A stretch of DNA of 48,068 nucleotides from a plasmid. Shown piece by piece: positions 5 to 48,068 of this stretch. The stretch is from the sequence record NZ_CP008945.1; one strand, 5' to 3'. A program made the translations under genes and the position numbers. The notes beneath the pieces are model-generated. The model had not been told where the DNA came from and did no database searches. It saw only the letters and a program-made list of their open reading frames with translations. The first letter of the stretch is position 1. The number at the start of each line of letters is the position of its first letter.

Positions 5-21
5 GACGTCGAAAATGATAA
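5..21. repeat. Left terminal 17-bp inverted repeat GACGTCGAAAATGATAA. It is the perfect reverse complement of 48042..48058. Candidate outer att arm.
   Basis: Exact reverse-complement match between the two window ends, read directly from the sequence. Confidence 0.6.
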
Positions 22-218: not shown

Positions 219-1790
219 CTACAGCTGAACCCTCACTACCTCACCAACTCGGAACACGAACCGGATCGTATCCTCGTCTACGATGGCGTGGTCGATGAGT
301 GCGCTCCACTGTGAGGGGCGGAACTCGCTCACAGGTTCGCCCGCCAGATCGCCTAGGGCTGTAGTGACGGCGGCATGCTTGGCAGTGTTCGCTGCAATAT
401 CTGCCTCTAGGCTCGCTTTGCATGCGAGTGTCTTACGGTAGGCAGTATCGAGCTCTGTGTACTTGTTTTGGTAGGCGTCTTGGTCGAGCGCGCGTTGCTG
501 GTTTTCCGCAATCAGTGCTTCGATCTGCTCAGTGAGTTCCACGATTTTCGCCTGGCAGGCGGCGGCTTGTTCTTCCATGCGGCTCGTATCAAACATGGAG
601 TCAAAGATTTGCAGTAGGTGGCTTTGCCGTGACTGGCGGGCGATCAGTTGGTTGAGTGCTTGGACGAAAGCGTTCTTGATATGTTCGTCCTTCACAGTCG
701 CGCTGCTGCAAGGGTGTTCGACTGCGTATTTGTGGTTGCATTGCCAGACTGTGTACTTATATTTCGTGTTCGACGCCCACGTTTTACGCCCATACCATGC
801 ACCACACTGCGCACACTTGAGCCGGGTGGAGAATAAGCCGACTTTTGCTGACGATATGTTGCCATGCCTGGTGGTGAGCTCGTATTGCACCTGATCCCAG
901 ATACGCGGTTCGATGATCGGCTCATGATTACCTGATACATAGTATTGGGGTACTTCGCCTTCGTTGACCTTCATCTTCTTAGTAAGGAAATCGGTGGTGA
1001 ACGTCTTTTGCAGCAGGGCATCGCCCTTGTATTTTTCATTCGACAGGATGGAACGCACTGTCGACGTTGACCACACCTCTTTCCCACGCGGGGTGAGAAT
1101 CTTGCGGGTAGCGAGCTCGGTTTTGATCTCACTGATAGCCATCCCGTCAAGGAAAAGCTGGTAGATCAACCGGACAGTCGGTGCCTGGGTTTCGTCAATG
1201 ACGAGGTTACCGTCCGCTCCTTTCTTGTATCCGAGCAGCGACTTGTAGGGCACCATGACTTTTCCATCGGCAAAACGTTTCCTGTGTCCCCAGGTGACGT
1301 TTTCGGAGATAGAGCGGGATTCTTCTTGCGCCAGTGAGCTCATGATCGTGATCAATAGCTCGCCTTTGGCGTCGAAGGTGTAAATATTTTCCTTCTCAAA
1401 ATAGACCTCGACGCCTGCGTCTTTGAGCTTGCGCACGGTAGTGAGCGAGTCGACGGTGTTGCGTGCGAACCGGGACACGGATTTGGTGAGGATCAGATCG
1501 ATTTTGCCTGCCAGGGCATCATCGATCATGGTTTGGAATCCCTCACGGCGCTTCATAGAGGTGCCAGAGATACCTTCGTCGCAGTACATGCCCGCGAACT
1601 GCCAATCATTACGGGAGCGAATGTAGGTGGTGTAGTAGTCGATTTGCGCCTCATATGATGAGGTTTGTTCTTCCATCTCGGTAGAGACTCGCGCGTAGGC
1701 GGCGACCTTTCTGCGTGCCGGTACCCCGGACGGGGTTGTGACAGTTCCGGGTTTCTTTGTTGCGGGTATCGCAGTGACCGTGCGACTCAT
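219..1790 (-). CDS. Large serine recombinase (resolvase/invertase-type catalytic domain plus recombinase and zinc-ribbon domains), copy A.
   Basis: N-terminal YARVST...SGTSMKRREGFQ...KSVSRFARN serine-recombinase motifs. 523 aa. The ATG overlaps the stop of the upstream recombinase (ATGA). Confidence 0.85.
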   Translation of the reverse strand: MSRTVTAIPATKKPGTVTTPSGVPARRKVAAYARVSTEMEEQTSSYEAQIDYYTTYIRSRNDWQFAGMYCDEGISGTSMKRREGFQTMIDDALAGKIDLILTKSVSRFARNTVDSLTTVRKLKDAGVEVYFEKENIYTFDAKGELLITIMSSLAQEESRSISENVTWGHRKRFADGKVMVPYKSLLGYKKGADGNLVIDETQAPTVRLIYQLFLDGMAISEIKTELATRKILTPRGKEVWSTSTVRSILSNEKYKGDALLQKTFTTDFLTKKMKVNEGEVPQYYVSGNHEPIIEPRIWDQVQYELTTRHGNISSAKVGLFSTRLKCAQCGAWYGRKTWASNTKYKYTVWQCNHKYAVEHPCSSATVKDEHIKNAFVQALNQLIARQSRQSHLLQIFDSMFDTSRMEEQAAACQAKIVELTEQIEALIAENQQRALDQDAYQNKYTELDTAYRKTLACKASLEADIAANTAKHAAVTTALGDLAGEPVSEFRPSQWSALIDHAIVDEDTIRFVFRVGEVVRVQL

Positions 1791-3037
1791 GCCAACCTCC
1801 CCTCACTGGTTAAGCCCACCGGCGTCATAGTTCCATCCGCGAGGTGGAATGTGAGCTGGTGCGGGAAGGCTTCAATCATCACGATCTGCTCGCCAACCTG
1901 GACGGGGTCGAAACTTTGGGTGCCGAGCATGTCTGCGCAGGCTTGTTCGAGGAGTGTTTCGCGTAGGTTGTGCCCCCTACAGGGGTTGCCGTTCCCGGTG
2001 CAGGCACTCCAGCACCGCCAAAACTTATACGAGGTTCCAGACTTGTAGGTGCGGGTTTTGCGTTGATAGTTCTTCCCGCACGCGCCGCAGCAGATCCGTC
2101 CAGTGAACACGCCCGTGTTCTTTGACGGGGTCGCCGCCGGACCAATCTCGCGCCGATGAGCGATTTCTGCTTGCACCGCGTCAAACATCTCCTCGTCAAT
2201 GATTGGTGGGAGGGCTTGCTCAACCCAGTATCGCGGCAGCTCCCCGTCGTTGAGGGCACATGTGGGTGCTTGGATTGTGGGGCGGTACATTTTCTGTAGC
2301 ATTTGGCAGCCCTTGTAGCGCTCATTTTCGAGCATGCGACGAAACACTGACCCGTAGAAGCGTCCTCCACCGCGCGAACGCGCCCCTTGACCATTGAGGA
2401 TCGCGGCTGTCTTTTCCGGGCTGATCCCATCGAGATAATTGGCAAACAGTAAGCGCACAATCTTGGCTTCATCTTCAATGATGGTGAACTGGCCGTCTGC
2501 CCAGCTATAGCCGTAGACGACGAAAGAATTTGTGCCACCGTTCTTGTACCGGTTACGGATTGCCCATTTGACGTTCTGGGACAGGGAACGGGATTCTTCT
2601 TGAGCAAACGACGCCAACAAGGTCAGCAGGAGTTCTCCGTCAGCGCTGAGAGTGTCGATGCGTTCGCGTTCGAAGCGCACAGCCACACCAAGGTCTTTCA
2701 GCTCACGAACCGTAGCGAGCAGGTCGACAGTGTTGCGGGCAAGGCGCGAGATCGATTTACACAACACAAGATCGATCTTTCCTGCTCTGGCTGTGTTCAT
2801 CAGGTCGGCCAGGCCTTGCCGGGATTTCATCGAAGTGCCAGTAACCCCTTCGTCAGTGAATACACCCGCATAGGCCCATCCGGGCGTGGATTGGATCAGG
2901 CGCGAATAATACGACACTTGCGCCGATAGGGATGCTAACTGCTCGACGGCGTTGGTTGAGACCCGCGTGTATGCTGCTACGTTGACCAGTTTCGGGGTCG
3001 GCGGCCGAACTGGTGTCACCACACTAACTTGTGCCAC
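1787..3037 (-). CDS. Large serine recombinase, copy B. The likely start is the GTG at 3037, preceded by GAAAGGAG; the ORF track extends to 3067.
   Basis: AAYTRVST...GVTGTSMKSRQG...KSISRLARN motifs. A Cys-rich zinc-ribbon region. A C-terminal coiled-coil-like segment. Confidence 0.85.
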   Translation of the reverse strand: MAQVSVVTPVRPPTPKLVNVAAYTRVSTNAVEQLASLSAQVSYYSRLIQSTPGWAYAGVFTDEGVTGTSMKSRQGLADLMNTARAGKIDLVLCKSISRLARNTVDLLATVRELKDLGVAVRFERERIDTLSADGELLLTLLASFAQEESRSLSQNVKWAIRNRYKNGGTNSFVVYGYSWADGQFTIIEDEAKIVRLLFANYLDGISPEKTAAILNGQGARSRGGGRFYGSVFRRMLENERYKGCQMLQKMYRPTIQAPTCALNDGELPRYWVEQALPPIIDEEMFDAVQAEIAHRREIGPAATPSKNTGVFTGRICCGACGKNYQRKTRTYKSGTSYKFWRCWSACTGNGNPCRGHNLRETLLEQACADMLGTQSFDPVQVGEQIVMIEAFPHQLTFHLADGTMTPVGLTSEGRLA

Positions 3038-3060
3038 GTTTTCTCCTTTCGTGTTAGGTC

Positions 3061-3099
3061 TATACACGCTCTAAACCAGGTGTTTATCCAGTCGTTTCG
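3061..3099 (-). promoter_or_regulatory. R-motif copy 1 (CGAAACGACTGGATAAAC...TTTAGAGCGTGTATAGACC), immediately upstream of the recombinase B RBS.
   Basis: Shares the CGA[A/T]ACGACTGGATAA core and the TTTAGAG[C/T]GTGTAT segment with the copy at 23157..23213. Confidence 0.5.
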
Positions 3100-21467: not shown

Positions 21468-21491
21468 GACCATCTCCTTTGCCTCTTGTTC

Positions 21492-22423: not shown

Positions 22424-22466
22424 GACCATCCTCCATCTCACGTTTGCTCTTGTCAGGGATTCGTTT

Positions 22467-22515
22467 GGTCATGTACATACAGCCATAGGTGCGGCGCTAC
22501 ATCCAGTCATTTTCG
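22467..22515 (-). promoter_or_regulatory. R-motif copy 3.
   Basis: CGAAAATGACTGGAT...CACCTATGGCTGTATGTACATGACC. Confidence 0.5.
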
Positions 22516-28326: not shown

Positions 28327-28465
28327 CGCTGGCTCCTTCCCCCTGGATGTGGTGAAGCCCCAAGTTCCCGTGTGGGTTCTTGGGGTTTCTCCTAGTTTTC
28401 AACCACTTACATGTTCTCACACCGATATGCGGTTTTCTATCGCATGTTTCGGATACCCGCTAACG

Positions 28466-32944: not shown

Positions 32945-33378
32945 GGGGTGACCTCCTTGAAATCAGAATCGAAAAACTTAATGGGCAACTCGAGGTCGCG
33001 TGCCCACCCGATCTCTAAGCGCATACCAGGGCTGACGTGTCCGACATATGCCCAGAAGGCTTCGCACTTGGCGAGCAGCACACGGTTGAAAAACATCGCC
33101 AGCTCCCGCTGATCAAAATCGGTGTCATCCATGAACTGCGGGAACAGCAGGTGTGGGGCGAATAGGATTTTGCCCGCGCCCACTGCAAATCCACAGAATT
33201 GACGGGCCAGCTCCACGTTCGCCTCGGTGTCGCCCGAGTAGGGCGAGCAGATATAAACCAAGGGCCGGTAACCGAACAGTTCACGCTGGAGCTTCTTGAG
33301 CGCGTGGTAGCTCGTCAGGTCCAGATAGCCTTCGGTGTTCTTCTTCGAAAACCCAATATCAAGAGTCGCGACGGTCAT
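32941..33378 (-). CDS. DUF4406 / nucleoside 2-deoxyribosyltransferase-like protein.
   Basis: LVYICSPYSGD...FAPH...WAY...SPGM.LEIGWARDLELPIKFF pattern of the phage DUF4406 family. Confidence 0.5.
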   Translation of the reverse strand: MTVATLDIGFSKKNTEGYLDLTSYHALKKLQRELFGYRPLVYICSPYSGDTEANVELARQFCGFAVGAGKILFAPHLLFPQFMDDTDFDQRELAMFFNRVLLAKCEAFWAYVGHVSPGMRLEIGWARDLELPIKFFDSDFKEVTP

Positions 33379-34139: not shown

Positions 34140-34203
34140 GGCGGGGTTCCTTCCCGAGACCCCGTCGAGAAAAAGTCGTGCCGGTCGGCACAAGGGTTAA
34201 GGG

Positions 34204-34247
34204 CCTCACCCCACTGCCGACGAACCTAAAAGTGTTAAATCCGCGCC
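34204..34247 (-). promoter_or_regulatory. X-motif copy 2, upstream of the antirepressor gene.
   Basis: CCTCACCCCACTGCCGACGAACC...GTGTTAAATCCGCGCC. Confidence 0.45.
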
Positions 34248-38636: not shown

Positions 38637-38887
38637 GCCGCATCACCACCCTCACGGGTGACACCTGCCGCGTCGGCCAGCGCCATCAGGTCGTCGTCGG
38701 TTTCGGCGATGTCGATCTGCTTGACCGAGTTGCCGGGCACGACGATGGTGACGCGCTGCTTGCGACCCAGGAGCTTGCGCATGATGCGTCCGCGCAGGGT
38801 GACTGTGCGGGTGCCGACGATCCCCGGATCATCGGGGATGTGCTTGGCGATATGGAGCTTGAGCCGATGCTGGGTCATCTCCTTCAC
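38633..38887 (-). CDS. Hypothetical phage protein (84 aa).
   Basis: ORF. An X-motif lies immediately upstream. Confidence 0.45.
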   Translation of the reverse strand: MKEMTQHRLKLHIAKHIPDDPGIVGTRTVTLRGRIMRKLLGRKQRVTIVVPGNSVKQIDIAETDDDLMALADAAGVTREGGDAA

Positions 38888-39663
38888 CTGCCTTCCTTAC
38901 TGGTGGGAGTGGCCCGGGTGGCTGCTCCCTTCACCCCACTGCCGACACCATCGGAAGTGTTAAATCGCGTCGCCTCCACCGCTGCGCGAAGGACCGCAGC
39001 TGCTTCCTTGAACAGTTGTGAGACCCGGGCTCGCGACAGGCCCAGGGCGCGGGCAACATCAGACTGCTTCATGTCCGCGCCGACGAGCATCAGCTCCATC
39101 ACTTGTTTGTGCTTGCCCTCCAGGCCAGCGATCGCCTCCCGCAGCGCTTGGAATTCGCGGGCCTTCCGAGCGGTGTCTTCAGCGGCGATCAGCTGGTCTT
39201 CGGGCGACGCGGTGATATCCTCGACAACCGCAGATGGATCGTCGGACTTGTCAACAACGAATTCCGGTTCACGGTCGATCTCCATGAACCAGTCGAGCGA
39301 CCACGGCGCGTTTTTCGGCACCCGGCAGCCACGGCGCGGGCCGCACCCGGCACCGCAGCTGCACTTGCGAGCGCCGGGGCCACGATCACCCCGGTAGGCC
39401 TCGTGGAAGACGGCCTCTTCCTGCCTGGCCATGTCATCGAGAATCTGCTGCGGATGCCTCGGCTTGATCTCATCGACCGGACGGCCTGTCTGTTGGGCGC
39501 GTTCACGCCGGTCGGTTTTCACCATCACGGCAAACTCGCCGGGGTCGATCTCGTAGACGTCGGTGATGGATTCGTGCTTGTTGTTGTCGGCTTCGTGCTT
39601 AAAGCGGATTGTGAGCGCAGCGTTGTTGTTCTGCGTTTCCTGCGCGTCCGTACGCTTGGACAT
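38884..39663 (-). CDS. DNA-binding protein with a Cys cluster and a C-terminal sigma-70 region-4-like HTH. Probable start MSKRTDAQ at 39663.
   Basis: CSCGAGCGPRRGC cluster. C-terminal ELMLVGADMKQSDVARALGLSRARVSQL HTH. Confidence 0.5.
   Translation of the reverse strand: MSKRTDAQETQNNNAALTIRFKHEADNNKHESITDVYEIDPGEFAVMVKTDRRERAQQTGRPVDEIKPRHPQQILDDMARQEEAVFHEAYRGDRGPGARKCSCGAGCGPRRGCRVPKNAPWSLDWFMEIDREPEFVVDKSDDPSAVVEDITASPEDQLIAAEDTARKAREFQALREAIAGLEGKHKQVMELMLVGADMKQSDVARALGLSRARVSQLFKEAAAVLRAAVEATRFNTSDGVGSGVKGAATRATPTSKEGR
38928..38969 (-). promoter_or_regulatory. X-motif copy 3, embedded in the 3' end of the upstream gene.
   Basis: CCTTCACCCCACTGCCGACACCATCGGAAGTGTTAAATCGCG. Confidence 0.45.
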
Positions 39664-39708
39664 TGGGGATCTCCTGTCGGATTGGGATCCGCAGGAGTCC
39701 GCCACGCC

Positions 39709-39788
39709 GCAGAAACGGCAAGACGGGCAGGTTCACGCGCCTCAAAGTCGAGGTGATGCGTGATCCTTGCCCGTCTAGCGGTTCTGCG
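39709..39788 (-). repeat. Imperfect ~22-bp inverted repeat (GCAGAAACGGCAAGACGGGCAGG ... CCTTGCCCGTCTAGCGGTTCTGC) with a ~34-nt spacer, located in the leader of the early operon.
   Basis: Read from the sequence. No U-tract follows, so it is not a classic terminator. Confidence 0.35.
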
Positions 39789-39830
39789 GATCGAACTGTT
39801 TATGTCGGTATTTAGTTGTGGTTCGGTGGG

Positions 39831-40001
39831 TTATCGATAGTGCGGTTCAGGTGGGGGTCGTCGTTCGTGACGCTGGTGAAAGCCCCCGTAGTCGTCGAAC
39901 CAGAGCCGGGAGAGGCATCCCTTATGGACGATCTCGATCTGCCTACGCTCTAGGTCGACACGGCAAATCGTTTTGCCTCCCGCGTTCTTTACTGTTTCCA
40001 T
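39831..40001 (-). CDS. Small protein (56 aa, METVKNAGGKTICRVDLERRQIEIVHKG...), the first gene downstream of the immunity module. It is below the ORF-track size cutoff.
   Basis: RBS GGAGGTG with 7-nt spacing to the ATG. The frame is open to a TAA. An operator-like palindrome lies immediately upstream. Confidence 0.4.
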   Translation of the reverse strand: METVKNAGGKTICRVDLERRQIEIVHKGCLSRLWFDDYGGFHQRHERRPPPEPHYR

Positions 40002-40018: not shown

Positions 40019-40037
40019 AGTTAGCTAAGTTGCTTAC
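40019..40037. promoter_or_regulatory. Operator site 1: palindrome GTAAGCAACTTAGCTAAC. Read on the same strand it is nearly identical to site 2.
   Basis: 18-bp GTTAGC-N6-GCTAAC-type dyad between the immA stop and the next gene's RBS. Confidence 0.5.
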
Positions 40038-40078
40038 AACATGGGTAAAAAAAGAGAACCCGACTCGTAGTGAATGAA

Positions 40079-40753
40079 TTACGCGGCGAGCTTCAGGTTC
40101 TTGATGCGGATTGCGGCAGCCTGCTTAGAAACCTCGAAAGTCCCAGCGAGTTCCCGGACGACACGGCGCTTGCGTCGCTCATCCAATGATCGCCAGCCTT
40201 CGGGGGCAAGCTCGGTGAATGCCTGCGAGAACGGGTCACGGGGCATGAGTAGCGCCGCCCCGAGGTAGTTGGCTTGGAACTCGGCGCGGTCCACCTTGTT
40301 GTCGGCGCGAACGCCCTCCGAGGTAGTAGTGAACGGGCGATACCCTGTTCCTCCCTTGCACTTCATCCGAGGGTCTCGGTAGTAGATATGCCGATGCAGG
40401 AGGAGGTGAGCGCACTCGTGAGCAATCGTGAAACGCAGTCGACTGTCCGGGGAGTCACGCAAGGCATCGTCGTCGATAACGATTGTTCGTTCTGGAAAAA
40501 CGATGTCAACCCTTGCGCCGGTAGACTCGAAGACAGGGATGGACAGCTCCTGGAAGATCGACATTCCAAGCACGCTGCCGTCCGACGAAAGCCGCTGATA
40601 GTCCAGTGCCGCTCCCAGGTGAAACTCGGCGAAGCTGTCGACGTCGAGCGGGATAGGCGCTACCAGTTGAGCGCCACCGGCGAATTTCTCGAGCTCCTTC
40701 TCTGCGCGAGCCTCGAGTCGCTCCTTGCTGAGGTATTTGGGGTCAAGGCTCAC
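40079..40753 (-). CDS. ImmA/IrrE-family metallopeptidase (anti-repressor protease).
   Basis: HEXXH motif FTIAHECAHLLLH. Gene pairing with the upstream XRE repressor. Confidence 0.8.
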   Translation of the reverse strand: MSLDPKYLSKERLEARAEKELEKFAGGAQLVAPIPLDVDSFAEFHLGAALDYQRLSSDGSVLGMSIFQELSIPVFESTGARVDIVFPERTIVIDDDALRDSPDSRLRFTIAHECAHLLLHRHIYYRDPRMKCKGGTGYRPFTTTSEGVRADNKVDRAEFQANYLGAALLMPRDPFSQAFTELAPEGWRSLDERRKRRVVRELAGTFEVSKQAAAIRIKNLKLAA

Positions 40754-41127
40754 TGGTCAGCTTCCCCGCCTTCAATGATGTCGATGATGTCCCGCCACTG
40801 CTGGTCACTCAGGTCATGTTCTTTCGCCCGGCGAAGAGCGACGCGAGCCATGTCGGTTTGCATAATGTAGCCCGACAGGTCGGTAGACACCTGGTTCTCG
40901 CGAGTCAATGCTGCCAGGTCATACATCCGCTCCCTCTCGGAGCGGGAGAGTCGCAACGTCTCCGCGATGTCCCCCAGCTTGCCGTCCGGGGCAGCCCGGC
41001 GGCCTTTCTCGATGTCACTCAGGTAGGGAGCGGTCACACCGATGGCGTCCGCGAACTTGCGCATGGTTAAGCCTTGCGCCTTCCTATGTGCTTCCAGGAA
41101 GGCACCGAAGTTCTCTGATTCAGTCAT
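40750..41127 (-). CDS. XRE-family HTH repressor (ImmR/CI-like). Probable start MTESENF at 41127.
   Basis: HTH QGLTMRKFADAIGVTAPYLSDIEKGRR. RBS GAGGAGG. Confidence 0.8.
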   Translation of the reverse strand: MTESENFGAFLEAHRKAQGLTMRKFADAIGVTAPYLSDIEKGRRAAPDGKLGDIAETLRLSRSERERMYDLAALTRENQVSTDLSGYIMQTDMARVALRRAKEHDLSDQQWRDIIDIIEGGEADQ

Positions 41128-41148
41128 TGGAACAGCCTCCTCACGTCT

Positions 41149-41166
41149 GTTAGCAACTAAGCTAAC
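41149..41166. promoter_or_regulatory. Operator site 2: perfect dyad GTTAGCAACTAAGCTAAC, 22 bp upstream of the repressor start. Probable autoregulation site.
   Basis: Perfect 6-bp half-sites with an N6 spacer. Confidence 0.55.
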
Positions 41167-41196
41167 ACGTGAAGTAGGTTGGTGCAAGTCTACGGA

Positions 41197-44100
41197 TCAG
41201 GAGTCGTCTCGTTGGCTATCCTCGTGCCGGGGTCGGTTGAGGCGGTCGTGGATGAGCGGGAGCAGGATCGCGTCCACGTCGGCTCGGAAGGCTTTGTCCG
41301 ACAGGTACTTCATGGAGAAGTCGTGATTTTGGGTCATCCGCGCCAGCATGACGTCGGGCATCTTCTCGTCGTAGATGATCTTGAACAGGTCGAGCGGGTT
41401 ATGGGCACGCAGCTGGATCTCGTTGTCTTGGGCGAGGTCGTCGGCGACCTGTTCGAGCACTTTGTCCATGTTGGTGAACTCGGTGCCCCATCGTTCGTTG
41501 AGGGAGTCGAGGATCTTTGAGAGTCGCTCGCGGTCGTCTTCGGTGGGCATGCTCAGCTTGGGCGAGTTGTTCAACTCACCCACCTGGTCTTGTAGGTCGA
41601 TGGAGCCCTCGTAGACCGACTGGAGCCGGTAGTACTGCAAGGTGACCTCATCATCCAGGTGTGGGGCGGGGTCGCCGTCGATGTGGAGCTTGCGGGTCAG
41701 CAGTTTCGCGTATGCGGCGAACTTGTGCAGCTGCTCGTCGTCGAAGCGGATGATGTGGGTCAAGAACTCGTAGTTGCGGTTGAACTTGTTGAACGCCGAG
41801 CGCACCTCGACTTTTTCCTCGTCGTCAAGGGCGTCGAAGCGGCCGACCGCCGGGTCGAGATAGGCGTTGAGCCTGCCAAAGTCGAGGTTGGTCTGCTGCT
41901 TCTGCTCTCTGAAGAACACGGTCGCGAACCCGTCGATCTCCTCGACCTGCCACAGCTGGTAGGAGGCGATCAGGTGGTAGAGGTCGTAGACGATGTTCGG
42001 GTCGGTTTCCTCGCTGATCGAGGTCGACACGTAGTAGTCCTGGAACGCCGCCTGAATGTCGTCAGCGCTGTTGACGAAGTCCAACACGAACGTGTCTGAC
42101 TTGCCCGGGCACATCCGGTTGATCCGTGACAGAGTCTGCACGGCCTTGACCCCGTGGAGCTTCTTGTCCACATACATGGTCTGCAGCAGGGGCTGGTCGA
42201 ACCCGGTCTGGTATTTCTCGGCCACCAGCAGAATCTGGTACTCACCGGTGTCGAACCGGTCTGGCAGCTCGGCTTCGGGGAAGCCGTTGAGTTGTTCCTC
42301 GGTGTAGTCATGCCCGTCGTCTTCGACGGTGCCGGAGAACGCCACCAGCACACCCAGGTCGGTGTAGCCCTTGGCTTTGATGTAGTTGGCGAACGCGAAG
42401 TAGTAGCGTACCGCGTGCAACCGGGAGCCGGTCACCAGCATTGCCTTGGCTTTGCCGCCGATCTTGTGCGCCACGTTGCTGCGGAAGTGCTCGATGATGA
42501 TCTCGGCCTTCTGCCGCAGATTGTGCGGATGCAGGGCTAAGTACTTGCCCAGCGCCTTGTTGGCCTGCTTCTTGGCGTACTCCGGATCGTCAGCGGTGGC
42601 CTTACCAACCTTGTAGTACGTCTGGTAGGTGATGTAGTTCGCCAGCACGTCGAGGATAAACCCCTCCTCGATCGCCTGCTTCATCGAATACACATGGAAC
42701 GGGCGCGGCGCGCCACCAGGCGTCGGAGTGCCGAAAATCTCCAGAGTCTTCTGCTTCGGGGTGGCCGTGAACGCGAAGAACGACAGATTCGGCTGACAAC
42801 CGTGGGTAGCCATGTCGGCGGCGATCTGCTCGTCAACCTCCAACTGTTCGGTCTCCACCTGAGCCTCAGCCTTCGCATACCGATCCAGCAACTCGGCCTC
42901 AGACTCCTGACCCGCTTGGGCAGTGTCAGCCAGCACCTGCTTGAGCCGCTCAGATGCCTGCCCGGTCTGCGACGAGTGCGCCTCATCCACAATCACCGCG
43001 AACCGCTTCCCGACCGTCACAATGTTGGACACGTCAACGAACGGAAACTTCTGCAACGTCGAAATGATGATCCGAGCACCCCGACCCAGCGCATCAGTGA
43101 GCTGACGGGCGTTCTTGTCCACCTTCACCACCACACCGGCGGTGTGATCCATCGAAAACACCGTGTCCTGGAGTTGCTTGTCCAACACCCTCCGGTCAGT
43201 GATCACAATGATCGAATCAAACACCACCCGCTGCTCGTCATCATGCAGGTTTGACAGGTGGTGAGCCAGCCACGCGATCGTGTTCGACTTGCCCGAGCCC
43301 GCCGAATGCTGCACCAAATAGTTATGACCAGCGCCGTTCGCCTTCGCGTCCGCGATGAGTTTACGCACCGCATCGAGCTGGTGGAAGCGCGGAAAGATCA
43401 CCTTGTCTTTCGACTTCGCCGAACGCCCCTCGGGAGTCTTGCCGGGCACGAACTGCACAAACCGGTGCAAAATATCAAGCAGTGAATCCTTCGCCAGCAC
43501 CTGCTCCCACAAATACGAGGTCTTGAACTTCCCCTCCACCGGAGGATTACCAGCACCATTCTGGAAACCTCTGTTGAACGGCAGGAACACCGTATCTTGA
43601 CCGGCCAGCTTCGTCGTCATCCACACCTCATCGGTGTCAACCGCGAAATGCACCACCGCACGCCGATTCAACCCAAACAACGGCTCCGAGGCCGGGCGAT
43701 CCCGCTTGTACTGGGCGATCGCGTTCCGGTAGGTCTGCCCCGTCAGCGGGTTCTTCAACTCGAGCGTCGCCACCGGGATGCCGTTCACCAACAGCACCGT
43801 GTCAACCGAGTTCTCACTGCGCGTTGAATACCGCAGCTGGCGCACGATGCTCATCTCGTTCGCCCAATACTTCTCAGCAAGCACCTCGTTCAAGTCAGTG
43901 CCGGGAGCAAAATACACCAGCTTGAACCGAGCACCCACATCCTCAACGCCACGGCGCAACACATCGATCACACCACGCTGATCAAGCTGCGCAGCGACAC
44001 GCTTCAGAAACTTCTGCTCCGCGTTACCCCGGTAACTGCGCTCCAACTTCGCCCACTGATCAGGCTGAGTAACCTTCACAAACCGGATCAGATCCGCAGG

Positions 44101-44226
44101 ATACAGACACAGCTCACGATCAAAACCCTGCGGGTCACGCGACTCAAAGCGGTCAAACTCCGCGCCCCGGGCAGTCAGCCAGTACTCGATCTCCGACTCA
44201 AACCGCCGCTCCGACGTATCCATCAC
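41197..44226 (-). CDS. hsdR: Type I restriction enzyme R subunit (HsdR).
   Basis: 1009 aa. N-terminal Type I/III restriction domain. DEAD-box helicase motifs (GSGKS, DEAH). Confidence 0.9.
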   Translation of the reverse strand: MMDTSERRFESEIEYWLTARGAEFDRFESRDPQGFDRELCLYPADLIRFVKVTQPDQWAKLERSYRGNAEQKFLKRVAAQLDQRGVIDVLRRGVEDVGARFKLVYFAPGTDLNEVLAEKYWANEMSIVRQLRYSTRSENSVDTVLLVNGIPVATLELKNPLTGQTYRNAIAQYKRDRPASEPLFGLNRRAVVHFAVDTDEVWMTTKLAGQDTVFLPFNRGFQNGAGNPPVEGKFKTSYLWEQVLAKDSLLDILHRFVQFVPGKTPEGRSAKSKDKVIFPRFHQLDAVRKLIADAKANGAGHNYLVQHSAGSGKSNTIAWLAHHLSNLHDDEQRVVFDSIIVITDRRVLDKQLQDTVFSMDHTAGVVVKVDKNARQLTDALGRGARIIISTLQKFPFVDVSNIVTVGKRFAVIVDEAHSSQTGQASERLKQVLADTAQAGQESEAELLDRYAKAEAQVETEQLEVDEQIAADMATHGCQPNLSFFAFTATPKQKTLEIFGTPTPGGAPRPFHVYSMKQAIEEGFILDVLANYITYQTYYKVGKATADDPEYAKKQANKALGKYLALHPHNLRQKAEIIIEHFRSNVAHKIGGKAKAMLVTGSRLHAVRYYFAFANYIKAKGYTDLGVLVAFSGTVEDDGHDYTEEQLNGFPEAELPDRFDTGEYQILLVAEKYQTGFDQPLLQTMYVDKKLHGVKAVQTLSRINRMCPGKSDTFVLDFVNSADDIQAAFQDYYVSTSISEETDPNIVYDLYHLIASYQLWQVEEIDGFATVFFREQKQQTNLDFGRLNAYLDPAVGRFDALDDEEKVEVRSAFNKFNRNYEFLTHIIRFDDEQLHKFAAYAKLLTRKLHIDGDPAPHLDDEVTLQYYRLQSVYEGSIDLQDQVGELNNSPKLSMPTEDDRERLSKILDSLNERWGTEFTNMDKVLEQVADDLAQDNEIQLRAHNPLDLFKIIYDEKMPDVMLARMTQNHDFSMKYLSDKAFRADVDAILLPLIHDRLNRPRHEDSQRDDS

Positions 44227-45416
44227 GCAGCCTCCTCACTAACCCGAACCTTGCCCGTCACCACATCATTAATAACCTGCTTGCGATAAGCACCCAACAA
44301 CTCCATCTGGCGGTCAATATCGCCAATCAAGCCGTCAATTTCTGCTGTCTTCGAATCGAGGAAATCTGCGATTTCTTCCTGCTCGCGAAGCGGCGGAAGA
44401 AGTGTTGGCAGTTTCCTTAGTTCTGAATAGTTCAACGACTGCCGCACGCCAGATCCAAGCCCGTAGAAAATCTTCTTTAGATCGTAAGCGCGCATCATCC
44501 ATCCAAGGAATCGCGGATCTATCTGAGCCCCGGGAATAAGCCCAATGTATGCTCCTGTGATGATTCCACGTTCACTAACGTAACCACTGCGCAGGCTTCT
44601 CTTGTCATTTTGCAGATCGGTCATGCGTAGAACTACATACCCAGGATTAACGATTTGATAAGTATCAAACGAAGCTGACAACAGCCCAAAAGCCAGATTA
44701 ATATCCTTGCGAATGATCGAACCGTAGCTAAGGCTCAGGAGATTACTCTCCGAAAGATCCTTGTTCTTCGTTTTGTTCTCATCGGTCATATTTGAAAGCG
44801 TCTGGATCTGCCACGCTTCTGGGATCTCGCCGATCCACTGCAACCCACTTTCTTTCATGGGGGCTTCGGGGTCGAGTCCCTTCGTGACGGTGTGGGCGAT
44901 CAACTCACGCTTGTAACGCTCCAACAACTCCCGCTGGCGCCTGAGCTTCTCGACCACCACGTCAATCTCAGCAGTCTTCGCATCCAAGAACGCAGCCATC
45001 CGTTCCTGTACTTCAATGTGCGACGGTATGGAAATTCGAACCTTCTCGATAACGCTGGCTGATATTCCCGGCTGTGCAGCCGCCTGAGAATATTGATTTA
45101 GATTCATTTGGATTAGCAGATAATACAAATACCTTGGGAGAACAAGACCGGAGATCGAGGCGATAAGTGCATGCTCGGATGCATATGCGGGTTGTGCAAC
45201 AAAGTGCACGTTTCCGGCCAGTGCTCCCTGCCGACCCACTAGAAGGTTAGTTCCTTCAATATTCGATGTCTCGGTGTACCCTCTTATTCCGTTACCTCCA
45301 AATACTGGATAGGTTCCCGTTTCGTGGATCTCTTCTCCTCGAATAGATCCACCGGAACGGAATCTGGCTAGTCGCTTAAGCGGGATTTCCAAACTTCCAC
45401 CTGGGTAACTGTCCAT
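44223..45416 (-). CDS. hsdS: Type I restriction-modification specificity subunit (HsdS) with two target-recognition domains.
   Basis: Two TRDs separated by conserved coiled-coil spacers (..LDAKTAEID..). Lower GC than the flanking genes. Confidence 0.85.
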   Translation of the reverse strand: MDSYPGGSLEIPLKRLARFRSGGSIRGEEIHETGTYPVFGGNGIRGYTETSNIEGTNLLVGRQGALAGNVHFVAQPAYASEHALIASISGLVLPRYLYYLLIQMNLNQYSQAAAQPGISASVIEKVRISIPSHIEVQERMAAFLDAKTAEIDVVVEKLRRQRELLERYKRELIAHTVTKGLDPEAPMKESGLQWIGEIPEAWQIQTLSNMTDENKTKNKDLSESNLLSLSYGSIIRKDINLAFGLLSASFDTYQIVNPGYVVLRMTDLQNDKRSLRSGYVSERGIITGAYIGLIPGAQIDPRFLGWMMRAYDLKKIFYGLGSGVRQSLNYSELRKLPTLLPPLREQEEIADFLDSKTAEIDGLIGDIDRQMELLGAYRKQVINDVVTGKVRVSEEAA

Positions 45417-47465
45417 CTATACCGCCTGCTCACTGAATAGTTTGGCGATGGAGGCTTGGATGTGGGCTCCAAGGCTTTGGATTTCGGCGAGGGTTTTGGT
45501 TGGGTCGCCGAGTTCTTCGTATTGGTAGAAGTAGCGGGTGAAGGGGATCTCGTAGCCGATCTTGGTCTTGTCGGGGTCGACGTAGGCGTCGGCCGCGTAG
45601 GGGATGACTTCGCGCTGGATGTAGGCGTCGATGTCTTCAGCGAGTGGGATCTGCTCGGTGTCGCGCAGCGCAGGGTCAGGTTCCGGGTTGCCCTTGGTGT
45701 CGCGGCAGATGTCTGCAGTCGGGTCAGTTTCACCCAGAGCCACCACGATCGCTTTCAACAGCGGGGCGCGCACCGTCAAACCATGCTCTTTGAAAGAGGC
45801 TTTGAGGACCTTCGTGAATTCGTCTCGGTTCTTCCACACCCGCTGGTCGCCGAGAGTTTCGATGGCGTCGACGATCGCTCGTTGGGTCTTCTTGCCGCCC
45901 TCGATCTCTTGGGTGCGGGCGGCTTCGCTACGCTTCTTCGAGGTGGCCAGATTCTTGAACGGGGTCCGCTCCCAGACTCGCTCGACGCGCTCAGGTGTGG
46001 CGGTGAAGTTCAAACGTAGCGGGCGTTCCACCGTGACTTCATGGAAGCCGAACTCGCGGGTGTCGAAAATCTTGGAGTGCTCACCCTCGGTGAAGTCGCC
46101 GTAGATGCGCGCGATCTGGGCAATGTTGTCAGCGGTGAGGTATTTGCGTTTTTCGCCGAGCGGTTTGCGCATCCTGGCAAAGAACTTGGTGGCGTCGATC
46201 AGTTGCACCTTGTTCTTGCGGATCGATGCCTTCCGGTTGGAGAGCACCCAGATGTAGGTAAGGATGCCGGTGTTGTAGAACATCTGGTCAGGCAGGGCGA
46301 CGATGGTCTCAAGCCAGTCGTTTTCAAGAATCCAGCGACGAATGTTCGACTCGCCCGACCCTGCCGCGCCGGTAAACAGGGGCGAGCCGTTGAACACGAT
46401 CCCGATCCGAGTGCCCGGCGCGTTCTGCGTATCAGCCGGATCGTAAGACTTCATCTTCGAGATCATGTGCTGCAAGAACAGGAACGACCCATCAGAGATT
46501 CGGGGCAGGCCAGCGCCGAAGCGCCCCTTCCACCCCCGCTTCTCGGCCTCGTCCTTGATCGGGCCTGCGTACTTCTTCCATTCCACGCCGAAGGGTGGGT
46601 TGCACAGCATGTAGTTGAACGTCCGACCCGCTGTTCTGTCAGCGGTCAGCGAGTTGCCGAAGTAGATTCGGTCGGCGTCATCGCCCTTGATGAGAATGTC
46701 GGACTTTGCCACCGCGTAGGATTGCGGGTTGAGCTCCTGCCCGTACACTTCGATGCGCGCGTCGTCGTTGAGGACCCGGGCTCGTTCGATCGCTTCGGAG
46801 AGCATGCCACCGGTGCCAACTCCCGGGTCATACAGCGACGCCATGAACCCGGGCGCGCATATGGCATCCATGTCCGGGTCGAACAGCACCTCGACCATGA
46901 GCTGGATGACTTCACGTGGGGTGAAGTGCTCACCGGCGGTCTCGTTGGACAGCTCGTTGAATCGCCGGATCAGTTCTTCAAAGATCGACCCCATGTCTTC
47001 GTTGGAGACCGCTGCAGGTAAGAAGTCCACCGCAGGGTCAGTGAAAGCATCGACGATCTGGTAGAGCAGATCGGAGCGGTCGAGACGGTCAATCACGGTA
47101 TAGAAGTCGTAGGACTTCATCACGTCGCGGGCGTTCCGCGAAAAGCCCTCCACGTAGGAGCGCAGGTTACCTTCCAGGTTGTCAGGATCGTTCTTGAGCG
47201 TGTGCAGCGTGAACCTGGAGGTGTTCCAGAACGGGTAGCCCGTAGCTCTCGCGTATTGGATGCGCTTGACCTCAGCCGGGACACCCTTCTGGTCACGAAT
47301 CTGGGCAACTTTGTCCTTCGTACTCACGAGAACCGAATCGAGACGGGTAAGCACCGTGAACGGCAAGATCACGTCCCCGTACTCGTGCTCCTTGTAGTCA
47401 CCGCGCAGCAGGTTCGCAATCTTCCAAATGAAGCTGACATAGTTCGTTGTTTTCTCAGTGCCCAT
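45417..47465 (-). CDS. hsdM: Type I restriction-modification N6-adenine methyltransferase subunit (HsdM).
   Basis: HsdM N-terminal domain (IWKIANLLRGDY..EYGDVILPFTVLTRLD). NPPF catalytic motif. SAM-binding region. Confidence 0.9.
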   Translation of the reverse strand: MGTEKTTNYVSFIWKIANLLRGDYKEHEYGDVILPFTVLTRLDSVLVSTKDKVAQIRDQKGVPAEVKRIQYARATGYPFWNTSRFTLHTLKNDPDNLEGNLRSYVEGFSRNARDVMKSYDFYTVIDRLDRSDLLYQIVDAFTDPAVDFLPAAVSNEDMGSIFEELIRRFNELSNETAGEHFTPREVIQLMVEVLFDPDMDAICAPGFMASLYDPGVGTGGMLSEAIERARVLNDDARIEVYGQELNPQSYAVAKSDILIKGDDADRIYFGNSLTADRTAGRTFNYMLCNPPFGVEWKKYAGPIKDEAEKRGWKGRFGAGLPRISDGSFLFLQHMISKMKSYDPADTQNAPGTRIGIVFNGSPLFTGAAGSGESNIRRWILENDWLETIVALPDQMFYNTGILTYIWVLSNRKASIRKNKVQLIDATKFFARMRKPLGEKRKYLTADNIAQIARIYGDFTEGEHSKIFDTREFGFHEVTVERPLRLNFTATPERVERVWERTPFKNLATSKKRSEAARTQEIEGGKKTQRAIVDAIETLGDQRVWKNRDEFTKVLKASFKEHGLTVRAPLLKAIVVALGETDPTADICRDTKGNPEPDPALRDTEQIPLAEDIDAYIQREVIPYAADAYVDPDKTKIGYEIPFTRYFYQYEELGDPTKTLAEIQSLGAHIQASIAKLFSEQAV

Positions 47466-47664
47466 TCGGGTCAACTCCATCTTCCATCAATCGCTCGTAA
47501 CGCTCATGCGACATGACCACCACGAGAGGCTTTCCGTAACGCAACACGTAGGCCACATCGTCACCATCAGCCACTTCCTTGAGCAGCTTCGATGCCTGAC
47601 CACGTCCAAGGTCGCCAATGTTGATGTGCTTCATCGACTTCTTCGCCGTACGCTTCCGCACCAT
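47455..47664 (-). CDS. Phd/YefM-family antitoxin-like DNA-binding protein, translationally coupled to hsdM (11-nt overlap).
   Basis: KHINIGDLGRGQASKLLKEVADGDDVAYVLRYGKPLVVVMSHERYERL matches the Phd/YefM fold pattern. No cognate toxin gene follows. Confidence 0.6.
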   Translation of the reverse strand: MVRKRTAKKSMKHINIGDLGRGQASKLLKEVADGDDVAYVLRYGKPLVVVMSHERYERLMEDGVDPNGH

Positions 47665-47699
47665 CGTATCCTTCACCACGAGTTACCGCCAACGCCTCA

Positions 47700-47775
47700 T
47701 TTTCCCATAAATGCATGCAAAATATCGTCACAACATGCGCGAGATACTACATGTACTTTTGCATGTGGTTCTTCG
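47700..47775. promoter_or_regulatory. AT-rich promoter/operator region upstream of the Phd-like gene, containing the inverted repeat CATGCAAAAGTA ... TATTTTGCATG.
   Basis: Lower GC content. TTGTGAC -35-like element. Dyad symmetry typical of antitoxin-type autoregulation sites. Confidence 0.35.
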
Positions 47776-48041
47776 TGAAGATGGAGACATGTGCGCGAGC
47801 CAGAACGCCCCACAAGGTCGAAGGTGGGCACGGTCTTATCAATCACAATTGAGGGCACGCCCCCTCGCCAGATATCCGCTAACGCAAGCCCACCAGCAGA
47901 CCCCCTCAACCAGAAACGTGCACCACTCCAACGGGAAGATCGGGGACGAGCACCCGATTACTGAACCTCCAGCACACCAGCGAACAGCCCCAGAAACAAC
48001 AAAATCCCTGGTCAAAAGGGGTTCAGGAACTCACGCGGTTT

Positions 48042-48058
48042 TTATCATTTTCGACGTC
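48042..48058. repeat. Right terminal 17-bp inverted repeat TTATCATTTTCGACGTC, the reverse complement of 5..21.
   Basis: Exact match, read from the sequence. Confidence 0.6.
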
Positions 48059-48068
48059 TTTGTTTCCA

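What the first reader, a model, noticed from the sequence alone, without database searches (positions are those of the whole stretch)
41197..47664. Complete Type I RM system inside the prophage, directly upstream of the immunity repressor
hsdM-hsdS-hsdR point toward immR with only ~30 bp between the hsdR stop and the repressor operator. Under the terminal inverted-repeat interpretation the RM system is phage cargo. It would defend the lysogen against other phages, and the phage's own MTase/MetK island would protect its DNA. Read-through from the RM operon may also contribute to repressor expression.
Basis: partly seen in the sequence, partly recalled or inferred. Interest (0 to 1): 0.55.

Follow-up and report, generated by a model that had tools for sequence, protein, structure and literature searches.

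The report
Prophage-borne Type I restriction-modification operon
A temperate phage of Actinomyces/Corynebacterium-type bacteria carries a complete, intact Type I restriction-modification operon just inside its attachment site and next to its lysogeny switch, which is a well-supported but fairly ordinary case of a phage carrying a defence system as cargo.

Summary
On the minus strand lie hsdM (45417-47465), hsdS (44223-45416) and hsdR (41197-44226). All have intact catalytic motifs. Next come an XRE repressor (40750-41127) and an M78 ImmA-type peptidase (40079-40753). A palindromic operator starts 29 nt after the hsdR stop.

The window is exactly one prophage unit. Its 17-nt terminal inverted repeats are the two arms of a palindromic serine-integrase attP. 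This attP is intact in one relative. It is split at the 3' end of tRNA-Gly in integrated relatives. A contig 100% identical to the window loses homology exactly at window base 48068. The RM operon is therefore phage cargo, about 390 bp inside attR.

Three refinements:
- The operon has a fourth, leading gene (47455-47664). It encodes only the DNA-binding domain of a Phd/YefM antitoxin.
- immR has its own conserved promoter and operator, and a conserved terminator follows immA. Read-through from the RM operon is possible but not required.
- HsdS target-recognition domains are shuffled between near-identical phages, and the slot holds other defence genes in related phages.

Self-protection must come from HsdM/HsdS, not from the orphan MTase/MetK island. 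Verdict: new member of a known kind, moderate interest.

The parts
5..21 (.). attP arm on the integrase side (GACGTCGAAAATGATAA). It is the left end of the prophage.
   Evidence: It is the perfect reverse complement of 48042-48058. In L003/L065 the two arms are adjacent around a 14-nt spacer.
48042..48068 (.). attP arm on the RM side (TTATCATTTTCGACGTC, 48042-58), followed by the spacer that ends in the crossover core TCCA (48065-68). This is the right end of the prophage.
   Evidence: L188 is 100% identical to the window, and its homology ends exactly at 48068. The core GTGGA is shared by attP, attL and attR of relatives, with GA at the centre of the palindrome.
219..3067 (-). Two tandem large serine recombinase genes (219-1790 and 1787-3067).
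   Evidence: Both have Resolvase, Recombinase and Zn_ribbon_recom domains. They lie next to the attP arm.
47680..47800 (-). Upstream control region of the RM operon, carrying several CATG-centred palindromes (CACATGCA, TACATGTA, TGCATGCA).
   Evidence: The region is conserved in ~90% relatives. The 70% relatives and Arcanobacterium carry 2-3 copies of TTACATGTAA at the same place.
47455..47664 (-). Phd/YefM-like gene (69 aa), first gene of the operon. It has the DNA-binding domain only, and no toxin gene follows it.
   Evidence: TIGR01552 scores 28.6 bits against a cut-off of 20.8. The AF2 model has pLDDT 84.8 and a beta-alpha-beta-beta-alpha fold. Foldseek matches YefM, Phd and RelB2 N-terminal domains at probability 0.99-1.0. 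The gene always overlaps hsdM in homologous loci.
45417..47465 (-). hsdM (682 aa).
44223..45416 (-). hsdS (397 aa), with two target-recognition domains and conserved central and C-terminal helices.
   Evidence: The target-recognition domains are mosaic between relatives.
41197..44226 (-). hsdR (1008-1009 aa).
   Evidence: The closest solved relative is EcoR124I HsdR, which is distant (E 1.5e-14).
41142..41186 (-). immR promoter-like elements (TTGCAC, 17 nt, TAGCTT) overlapping operator O1. O1 is TGTTAGCTTAGTTGCTAACA at 41148-41167.
   Evidence: The elements are conserved in all relatives. L106 shows a compensatory change to TGTTCGC..GCGAACA.
40750..41127 (-). immR, an XRE-family repressor (125 aa).
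   Evidence: HTH_31 and HTH_3 hits. A 125-aa gene is called in L181 and L187.
40079..40753 (-). immA, an M78 (ImmA/IrrE) metallopeptidase (224 aa, motif HECAH). It overlaps the immR stop codon.
   Evidence: Peptidase_M78 E 5.7e-13. PADLOC capP E 3e-18. Sequence read.
40047..40101 (-). Intrinsic-terminator-like hairpin plus U7 run, closing the RM-immRA block.
   Evidence: Folding energy -15.1 kcal/mol, z -2.1. A hairpin plus T6-8 run is present at the same spot in all relatives, although the stem sequences differ.
40019..40038 (-). Operator O2 (TGTAAGCAACTTAGCTAACT), in front of the first early gene (39831-40001).
   Evidence: It is the only other match to the O1 pattern with 2 or fewer mismatches. 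It is conserved at this position in all relatives.

Best explanation
**What the window is.** The window is one complete temperate siphophage-type prophage of 48,068 bp. Related prophages occur in Gleimia, Actinomyces, Schaalia and Corynebacterium. It is bounded by the two halves of a palindromic attP that is used by two tandem large serine recombinases. In relatives the target is the 3' end of tRNA-Gly.

**Layout at the RM end.** Immediately inside the end far from the integrases lies a co-directional block of about 7.6 kb:
- a promoter region with CATG palindromes;
- the Phd/YefM-like small gene;
- hsdM, hsdS and hsdR;
- then, with no terminator in between, the immR promoter and operator O1;
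- immR and immA;
- a terminator;
- operator O2 in front of the early genes.

**Inferred mechanism.**
- The RM operon is expressed from its own promoter in the lysogen.
- HsdM2S methylates host and prophage DNA at a bipartite site set by HsdS.
- HsdR restricts unmethylated incoming DNA, so the prophage protects its host, and itself, from other phages.
- ImmR represses its own promoter (O1) and the early promoter (O2). ImmA cleaves ImmR on induction, as in ICEBs1 and phage phi105.
- The RM operon is accessory cargo in a variable defence slot between att and the immunity region.
- HsdS target-recognition domains are exchanged by recombination between near-identical phages, which diversifies specificity.
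- The Phd/YefM-like protein most likely acts as a DNA-binding autoregulator of the RM operon.

**Shown versus inferred.** Shown here: gene content, intact motifs, att structure, element boundaries, conserved operators and terminator, synteny, and the mosaic HsdS domains. Inferred: expression in the lysogen, restriction activity, the ImmR-operator interaction, and the role of the Phd-like protein.
For: **Gene identities and motifs.**

**The rest of the window is phage.** It encodes TerL, portal, ClpP protease, tape-measure protein, holin, amidase, PolA, primase and Ant.

**att and boundaries.**
- The window ends are contiguous in L003/L065.
- Integrated junctions lie at tRNA-Gly in L102, L023, L025 and L105.
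- The exact attR junction is seen in the 100% identical contig L188.

**Synteny.** The order phd-hsdMSR-immR-immA-early genes is kept in relatives from 97% down to ~70% identity. In a sample drawn by DUF2800, independently of the RM genes, all 6 contigs with the window-type XRE/M78 and enough sequence upstream carry the RM.

**Cargo status.**
- Only about 5 of 30 DUF2800 relatives with at least 8 kb of upstream sequence carry any Type I RM there.
- L197 instead carries a Type III-like Mod/Res pair plus HamA in the slot.
- L210, L228 and L230 carry a different Type I system in the opposite orientation.

**Regulatory elements.** O1, O2 and the promoter are conserved, with a compensatory change in L106. 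The terminator after immA is conserved in function but not in sequence.

**Mosaic HsdS.** L181 has a 100% identical HsdM and an identical first target-recognition domain (TRD1), but a different second one (TRD2).

**Precedent.** Complete Type I RM systems in prophages have been described in C. clostridioforme LM41 (PMC11318856).
Against: - There is no expression, methylome or restriction data, so activity is inferred from intact motifs and conservation only.
- The window's own left junction with host DNA was not seen. Only its right junction was seen (L188).
- No convincing sigma-70-type promoter was called upstream of the Phd-like gene.
- Having a lysogeny-expressed block co-directional with the lytic genes is unusual. 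It depends on the predicted terminator after immA, which is modest (z -2.1).
- The near-perfect linkage of the RM with this immR/immA allele could reflect shared ancestry of one clade rather than any functional tie.
Confidence: 0.82

Rival explanations
1. The RM system belongs to the host. On this reading the prophage ends between hsdR and immR, and the RM merely flanks it.
For: IMG/VR provirus calls for two relatives cut the element at or inside the RM. L019/L191 starts at immR and L001/L190 starts inside hsdR. RM genes are not viral hallmark genes.
Against: Those cuts are prediction boundaries, not att sites. The attP arm and crossover core lie ~390 bp beyond the Phd-like gene. L188 is 100% identical to the window and diverges exactly at 48068. 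L003/L065 joins the RM end to the integrase end through an intact attP. Homology across the hsdR-immR junction persists in all relatives.
Confidence: 0.02
2. The XRE plus M78 pair is not the phage immunity switch. Instead it is a CapH/CapP-type regulator that turns the RM operon on in response to DNA damage.
For: The M78 protein hits PADLOC capP (E 3e-18) and the XRE hits capH weakly (E 2.7e-6). The pair always travels with this RM. It is partly kept in the Corynebacterium remnant L106. CapH/CapP-like pairs regulate many defence operons (10.1101/2022.04.27.489752).
Against: CapH/CapP sit upstream of their operon and divergent from it. Here the pair is downstream and co-directional. The two operators flank immR-immA, and O2 sits before the early phage genes. 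No O1-like site exists in the RM promoter region. RM-only mini-elements (L105, L182-184) keep the RM without the pair. In L015/L016 the XRE-M78 pair is co-oriented with DUF2800/SSB/PolA and divergent from the RM.
Confidence: 0.07
3. The RM operon mainly serves the phage as a stabilisation (addiction) module or as an epigenetic regulator of host genes, rather than as anti-phage defence.
For: The RM is retained in decayed elements that have lost every phage gene. L105 and L182-184 have two different deletion junctions, and L106 is cut by an IS. Type I systems can reprogramme gene expression by methylation (PMC12255300).
Against: Retention in remnants is equally expected for a useful defence gene. 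Shuffling of HsdS target-recognition domains between near-identical phages is the signature of diversifying selection on restriction specificity. The same slot holds other bona fide defence genes in relatives. The roles are not exclusive.
Confidence: 0.12
4. Read-through from the RM operon is the main source of immR-immA transcripts. Repressor level would then be tied to RM expression.
For: In this window there is no terminator between hsdR and immR. The spacer is only 69 nt and the genes are co-directional. The next terminator is after immA.
Against: A conserved TTGCAC-17-TAGCTT promoter-like element with an overlapping operator sits in the spacer in all relatives. The L104/L004/L002 clade has a GC-rich hairpin right after the hsdR stop. 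Phages with the divergent arrangement (L015/L016) express XRE-M78 without any RM read-through.
Confidence: 0.15

Closest known systems
Classical Type I restriction-modification systems (HsdM/HsdS/HsdR, for example EcoR124I and EcoKI)
   Same: All three subunits are present with their defining domains and motifs: NPPF, the AdoMet motif, two target-recognition domains with conserved helices, a PD-(D/E)xK-type nuclease motif, Walker A and DEAH. The genes form a tight operon.
   Different: HsdR is only distantly related to solved structures (EcoR124I, E 1.5e-14 over residues 120-431). NCBIfam equivalog cut-offs are not reached. HsdM belongs to a long ~680-aa subfamily (PDLC03029). The operon is led by an extra Phd/YefM-like gene and sits in a phage.
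Prophage-encoded complete Type I RM systems (Clostridium clostridioforme LM41 phi5 and phi13beta; PMC11318856)
   Same: A full hsdM/hsdS/hsdR set is carried as accessory cargo by a temperate phage.
   Different: The host phylum differs (Actinomycetota). Here the element boundaries, the att site and the position relative to the immunity switch are resolved, and the same slot is shown to vary between relatives.
ImmR/ImmA of ICEBs1 and the phi105 repressor/ImmA-type switches (also DdrO/IrrE and CapH/CapP)
   Same: An XRE HTH repressor is followed by an overlapping M78 (HExxH) metallopeptidase gene. Palindromic operators lie at its own promoter and at the promoter it silences.
   Different: The pair is co-directional with the lytic genes and is insulated by a terminator rather than being divergent. 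It lies downstream of a defence operon. Cleavage and the inducing signal are untested.
Small dedicated repressors of RM operons: RptR of EPEC Type I RM islands (PMC12255303) and the C proteins of Type II systems
   Same: A small DNA-binding protein is encoded as the first gene, in front of the RM genes. Repeated short palindromes lie in the promoter region.
   Different: RptR and the C proteins are helix-turn-helix proteins. The protein here has the Phd/YefM antitoxin N-terminal fold. Its binding to the CATG palindromes is only a hypothesis.
Defence hotspots of temperate phages and satellites (for example the P2/P4 hotspots and lambda rexAB next to cI). This comparison rests on my own knowledge and was not checked here.
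   Same: A fixed genomic slot next to att and the immunity region is filled by different defence systems in related phages. Examples here are Type I RM, another Type I in the opposite orientation, and a Type III-like Mod/Res pair plus HamA.
   Different: The phage lineage differs: DUF2800/Enc34-SSB/PolA replication module, serine integrases, Actinomycetota hosts.

Membership tests
Type I restriction-modification system | HsdM: N6-adenine methyltransferase with an HsdM N-terminal domain, an AdoMet-binding motif and an NPPF catalytic motif | tested here: met
   PF12161 and PF02384. PADLOC MTase_I full length, E 2e-263. NPPF at residue 289 and DPGVGTGG.
Type I restriction-modification system | HsdS: two target-recognition domains separated by conserved helical regions | tested here: met
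   Two PF01420 stretches. Full-length Specificity_I hits. Conserved central and C-terminal helices with variable target-recognition domains in the alignment.
Type I restriction-modification system | HsdR: N-terminal PD-(D/E)xK nuclease plus an SF2 translocase with Walker A and DEAH motifs | tested here: met
   PF04313, PF18766, PF04851 and PF22679. GSGKS at 310, DEAH at 414 and D..ELK. TIGR00348 scores 202 bits, below its 284-bit cut-off.
Type I restriction-modification system | Sequence-specific m6A methylation and ATP-dependent restriction of unmodified DNA | not testable with these tools
   This needs a methylome and plating assays.
Prophage cargo (gene inside the integrated element) | The gene lies between attL and attR, equivalently on the circular attP form | tested here: met
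   The attP is intact in L003/L065, with the RM end joined to the integrase end. The attR junction is at window 48068 in the 100% identical L188. tRNA-Gly junctions are seen in relatives.
Prophage cargo (gene inside the integrated element) | Accessory: present in some close relatives of the phage and absent from others | tested here: met
   In the DUF2800-based sample the RM is present in 6 contigs of the clade. It is absent or replaced in most of the other relatives that have at least 8 kb of upstream sequence.
ImmR/ImmA-type lysogeny switch | An XRE HTH repressor gene followed by an M78 (HExxH) metallopeptidase gene | tested here: met
   PF13560, PF01381 and PF06114. HECAH motif and 4-nt gene overlap.
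ImmR/ImmA-type lysogeny switch | Repressor operators at its own promoter and at the promoter of the genes it silences | tested here: inconclusive
   Two conserved palindromes, O1 and O2, sit at exactly these places, with a compensatory change in L106. Binding has not been shown.
ImmR/ImmA-type lysogeny switch | ImmA-dependent cleavage of the repressor on induction | not testable with these tools
   This needs biochemistry or genetics.
CapH/CapP defence-operon regulator | The pair is encoded upstream of, and divergent from, the regulated defence operon, sharing its promoter region | tested here: not met
   The pair is downstream of the RM and co-directional with it. There is no O1-like site in the RM promoter region.
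Phd/YefM type II antitoxin | N-terminal beta-alpha-beta-beta-alpha DNA-binding and dimerisation domain | tested here: met
   TIGR01552 above its cut-off. AF2 model with pLDDT 84.8. Foldseek hits to YefM, Phd and RelB2 at probability 0.99-1.0.
Phd/YefM type II antitoxin | A cognate toxin gene (Doc, YoeB or RelE type) immediately downstream, and a C-terminal toxin-binding tail | tested here: not met
   The downstream gene is hsdM in every locus. The protein ends a few residues after helix 2. It therefore has the antitoxin fold but is not a member of a toxin-antitoxin pair.

The most novel reading that the evidence does not exclude
The small leading gene encodes a toxin-less Phd/YefM DNA-binding domain. 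It would be a dedicated transcriptional controller of this Type I RM subfamily, binding the CATG-centred palindromes in the promoter. Functionally it would parallel RptR and the Type II C proteins, but with an antitoxin fold. It could set the timing of restriction when the phage lysogenises a naive, unmethylated host.

In addition, the 7-kb RM-only elements keep both att arms (Schaalia turicensis L182-184 and MAG L105). They might still be excised and moved by a helper phage's serine integrases, acting as integrase-less, satellite-like defence cassettes.
Probability: 0.3. Interest if true: 0.55.

Novelty: new member of a known kind. Interest (0 to 1): 0.36.

Why it matters
It gives a cleanly delimited example, with att sites mapped to the base, of a temperate phage that spends 13% of its genome on a full Type I RM system. 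The RM system lies within ~400 bp of its attachment site and sits next to its lysogeny switch.

- **Host barriers.** These phages occur in human-associated Actinomycetaceae and Corynebacterium. Lysogeny would change which DNA and which phages those strains accept. This is relevant to phage susceptibility and to genetic tractability.
- **Diversification.** The shuffled HsdS domains between near-identical phages show specificity diversifying on a mobile platform.
- **Domestication.** The RM-only remnants show how phage cargo becomes 'chromosomal' defence.
- **A cheap testable hypothesis.** The toxin-less Phd/YefM gene in front of hsdM may be a regulator of Type I systems, and this is inexpensive to test.

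Tried and rejected
1. Megablast of the RM end and of the first 25 kb against INPHARED phages found no match. No annotated close relative was available.
2. Exact-product look-ups with the mechanical ORF starts failed. After hsdM was corrected to start at ATG 47465 they worked.
3. There are no tRNA genes in the window and no Rfam family hits.
4. I first read L102 (Actinomyces urogenitalis) as a 15.7-kb remnant carrying only the RM, immRA and an ABC cluster. I rejected this because the scaffold has N-gaps at 9183-9935 and 14230-15655. Only its att junctions are used.
5. I first read the Schaalia loci L182-184 as non-phage chromosomal RM operons. I rejected this because they are flanked by X/att arms and by the last codons of the integrase gene. 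They are deletion derivatives of this phage family.
6. I considered a second, inner inverted repeat (69-92 / 47866-47889) as the att site. I rejected it because it is one copy of a repeated GCGTTAGCG motif that flanks the real attP.
7. The consensus sigma-70 scan gave nothing above shuffled expectation in 38.5-48 kb. The promoter proposals rest on conservation instead.
8. An attempt to identify the host from a flank ORF of L188 gave no homologues.
9. A search for an attP-like palindrome in the distant relative L005 found nothing convincing.


Full report
**1. What is at the coordinates**

The minus strand between 41197 and 47664 holds four tightly packed genes.

- *hsdM.* It has HsdM_N and N6_Mtase domains. 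It matches PADLOC model MTase_I PDLC03029 end to end (E 2e-263). It carries NPPF at residue 289 and a DPGVGTGG AdoMet motif. Its real start is ATG 47465, giving 682 aa. An identical product is called on metagenome contig L181. Look-ups with the mechanical start at 47480 found nothing.
- *hsdS* (44223-45416, 397 aa). It has two target-recognition domains.
- *hsdR* (41197-44226). It has HSDR_N, SF2 helicase and T1R_D3 domains. Its motifs are GSGKS at 310, DEAH at 414 and a D..ELK nuclease motif. Its nearest solved relative is EcoR124I HsdR, and that is distant.
It overlaps hsdM by 11 nt.

Downstream lie an XRE repressor (40750-41127, 125 aa) and an M78/ImmA peptidase (40079-40753, motif HECAH). 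These two genes overlap by 4 nt.

The hsdR stop codon (41199-41197) lies 29 nt from a perfect palindrome, TGTTAGC-N6-GCTAACA (41167-41148). It lies 69 nt from the immR ATG.

**2. The rest of the window is a temperate phage**

Nearly all genes are on the minus strand. Pfam finds the following:

- two tandem large serine recombinases (219-1790 and 1787-3067);
- amidase and holin;
- tail proteins and a tape-measure protein;
- ClpP-type protease, portal and TerL;
- an Nmad4 protein, a C5 MTase, a ParB-N6/N4 MTase, MetK and TerS;
- an SNF2 helicase, a D5-type primase and an antirepressor;
- PolA, an Enc34-type SSB and DUF2800.

**3. Where the element ends**

The window starts and ends with a perfect 17-nt inverted repeat (5-21 and 48042-48058). 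By my own estimate, the chance of this occurring within ~25 nt of both ends is about 1e-8.

In the ~90% identical IMG/VR contig 2806310650 (L003/L065), the reverse complement of window 118-1 is followed directly by the reverse complement of window 48068 onward. The two arms then form one palindrome around a 14-nt spacer. In that contig the only break in collinearity is a 6.4-kb insertion between the integrase stop codon and window position ~118.

In integrated relatives the arms are separated:

- The integrase-side arm abuts the 3' end of tRNA-Gly. This is seen in L025, L023, L102 and L105.
- The RM-side arm abuts unrelated host DNA. This is seen in L102, L104, L004, L020 and L101.

attP, attL and attR share the core GTGGA. 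Its GA lies at the exact centre of the palindrome, as expected for a large serine integrase.

Contig L188 is 100% identical to window 48068-45991. Its homology begins exactly at base 48068 (...CATAAAAA|TGGAAACAAAGACGTC). L187 gives the same result at 97% identity.

The window is therefore precisely one prophage unit. The RM operon lies inside it, ~390 bp from attR.

**4. Cargo, and a variable slot**

The order phd-hsdM-hsdS-hsdR-immR-immA-early genes is kept in relatives of 97% to ~70% identity. Hosts are Gleimia hominis, Actinomyces urogenitalis and Corynebacterium isolates and MAGs.

I then drew a sample that does not depend on the RM, using DUF2800 as the query (79 loci).

- Every contig with the window-type XRE/M78 and enough upstream sequence has the RM (6 of 6).
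- Only about 5 of 30 relatives with at least 8 kb of upstream sequence carry any Type I RM there.
- L197 (DUF2800 84% identical) instead has a Type III-like Mod/Res pair and HamA.
- L210, L228 and L230 have a different Type I system in the opposite orientation.
- More distant phages repeat the theme. L005 has the order lysis-int2-int1-hsdMSR. L015/L016 have XRE-M78-DUF2800-SSB-PolA divergent from hsdMSR.

The slot between att and the immunity region therefore behaves as a defence-cargo hotspot. Complete Type I systems in prophages have been reported before (PMC11318856).

**5. Signs that the RM is under selection**

HsdS is mosaic.

- The conserved helices are nearly invariant, while the target-recognition domains are swapped.
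- L181 has a 100% identical HsdM and an identical first target-recognition domain (TRD1), but a different second one (TRD2).
- The window's TRD2 resembles that of the 70% relative L020.

Decayed elements also keep the RM.

- In MAG L105 and in Schaalia turicensis (L182-184), the hsdR stop is joined to the last codons of the integrase gene. There are two different deletion junctions. Both att arms are retained, which leaves a ~7-kb RM-only element.
- In Corynebacterium sp. HMSC074A01 (L106), the RM, the XRE and a truncated M78 gene are cut by an IS next to the FAS-I gene.

I had first misread L182-184 as ordinary chromosomal loci. L102 cannot be used as a remnant because of N-gaps.

**6. The immunity switch and the read-through idea**

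- *Promoter and O1.* The 69-nt spacer contains TTGCAC, 17 nt, then TAGCTT, overlapped by operator O1. All of these are conserved in every relative. L106 has a compensatory change on both half-sites (TGTTCGC..GCGAACA).
- *O2.* A second operator of the same design (40019-40038) sits just after immA and before the first early ORF. It is also conserved.
- *Terminator.* Between immA and O2, every relative has a hairpin followed by a run of T6-T8, although the stem sequences differ.
- *No terminator before immR.* No terminator lies between hsdR and immR in this window. The L104/L004/L002 clade has a GC hairpin there.

Read-through into immR-immA is therefore physically possible. However, immR has its own autoregulated promoter, and the whole lysogenic block is insulated from the lytic genes.

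The pair resembles CapH/CapP at the sequence level. It fails the defining layout, which is upstream and divergent. No O1-like site lies in the RM promoter region. The pair is best read as the phage's ImmR/ImmA switch.

**7. The fourth gene**

- The 69-aa product passes NCBIfam TIGR01552 (28.6 bits against a cut-off of 20.8).
- Its AF2 model has pLDDT 84.8 and a beta-alpha-beta-beta-alpha fold. The model matches the N-terminal DNA-binding domains of YefM, Phd and RelB2 at probability 0.99-1.0.
- It lacks a toxin-binding tail, and hsdM follows it rather than a toxin gene.
- Homologues (35 clusters, 83% mean column identity) occur in Corynebacterium, Schaalia, Arcanobacterium, Mobiluncus and Brevibacterium. 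In every locus examined the homologue overlaps hsdM.
- Weaker homologues precede hsdM in Firmicutes MAGs.
- The upstream region carries repeated CATG-centred palindromes. These are TACATGTA and TGCATGCA in the window, and TTACATGTAA in two or three copies in relatives.

I propose that this protein autoregulates the operon. It would be an analogue of RptR (PMC12255303) and of the Type II C proteins, with a different fold. I found no paper describing this. It remains a hypothesis.

**8. Correction on self-protection**

The C5 MTase, ParB-MTase and MetK genes are real. A Type I enzyme's target is set by its HsdS subunit. Protection of the prophage and host from this system must therefore come from HsdM/HsdS. 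The orphan methyltransferases more likely counter other RM systems met on infection. This is inference.

**9. Verdict**

The finding is correct and its main interpretation is supported. It is a new member of a known kind: a defence system carried as prophage cargo in a variable hotspot. It comes with unusually clean boundaries and several modest extras:

- a toxin-less Phd/YefM leader gene;
- shuffled HsdS target-recognition domains;
- att-flanked RM-only remnants.

Activity, expression and regulation remain untested.

Noticed in passing
window 39700-39800 (minus strand): A very stable hairpin (-52.8 kcal/mol, z -6.1; no shuffle folds as well). It lies between the 56-aa first early ORF (39831-40001) and the sigma-70-region-4-like gene (38884-39621). 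It has no Rfam match. It could be a regulated terminator or antiterminator, or a processing site.
   Followed up: partly
window 3684-3725, 34200-34241, 38925-38966: A 42-nt repeat (76-86% identical copies). In minus-strand sense, each copy lies just upstream of a gene start: ORF 3290-3673, the antirepressor gene 33375-34193, and the 81-aa ORF ending at 38887. It is a candidate phage-specific promoter, possibly read by the phage's own sigma-like protein.
   Followed up: no
window 32-100 and 47877-47885; also 12167-12175 and 28458-28466: Motif GCGTTAGCG(AG). Three direct copies lie on the integrase side of attP and one inverted copy lies on the RM side. These are conserved in the 70% relatives. 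Another copy sits 16 nt upstream of the only plus-strand gene (alpha/beta hydrolase, 12191-12859). There are 28 matches at 1 mismatch or fewer, against 12.2 expected. Its binding factor is unknown.
   Followed up: partly
window 219-3067 and both ends (5-21, 48042-48068): Two tandem large serine recombinases use a 17+14+17-nt palindromic attP. In relatives they integrate at the very 3' CCA end of tRNA-Gly and leave the tRNA intact. A tRNA target is more typical of tyrosine integrases.
   Followed up: partly
L065 11541-17928 (IMGVR_UViG_2806310650_000001); L102 15848-22078: A 6.4-kb extra cargo block lies between the integrase gene and attP in some relatives. It contains two ABC exporter genes and an ECF-type transporter (Trep_Strep, CbiQ, double ABC ATPase). 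The same cluster lies ~6 kb from the RM mini-element in Schaalia turicensis (L182).
   Followed up: partly
L182 ~9640-16870 (Schaalia turicensis JASOMS010000008.1), L183, L184, L105: About 7-kb elements that contain only phd-hsdMSR. They are flanked by both att arms, with the hsdR stop fused to the last codons of the integrase gene. There are two independent deletion junctions. L182 also has an intact attP-like palindrome upstream, which suggests tandem remnants.
   Followed up: partly
L101 1-6600 (Gleimia hominis CCUG 57540): Directly outside attR of the intact prophage lies a scrambled, ~79% identical set of fragments of portal, PolA and TerS genes. This is a degraded second prophage of the same family at the same site.
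   Followed up: no
window 21602-21732 and 22748-22878; 21488-21516 and 22463-22491: Direct repeats (131 nt at 85% identity, and 29 nt at 97% identity) lie ~1 kb apart in the region between the Nmad4 gene and the C5 MTase gene. They suggest a local gene duplication.
   Followed up: no
Loci L101-L107, P0001: Near-identical copies of this RM and phage (85-97% protein identity) are reported from two orders: Actinomycetales (Gleimia, Actinomyces) and Mycobacteriales (Corynebacterium isolates and MAGs). This points either to a broad host range or recent transfer, or to mis-binning in the case of the MAGs.
   Followed up: no
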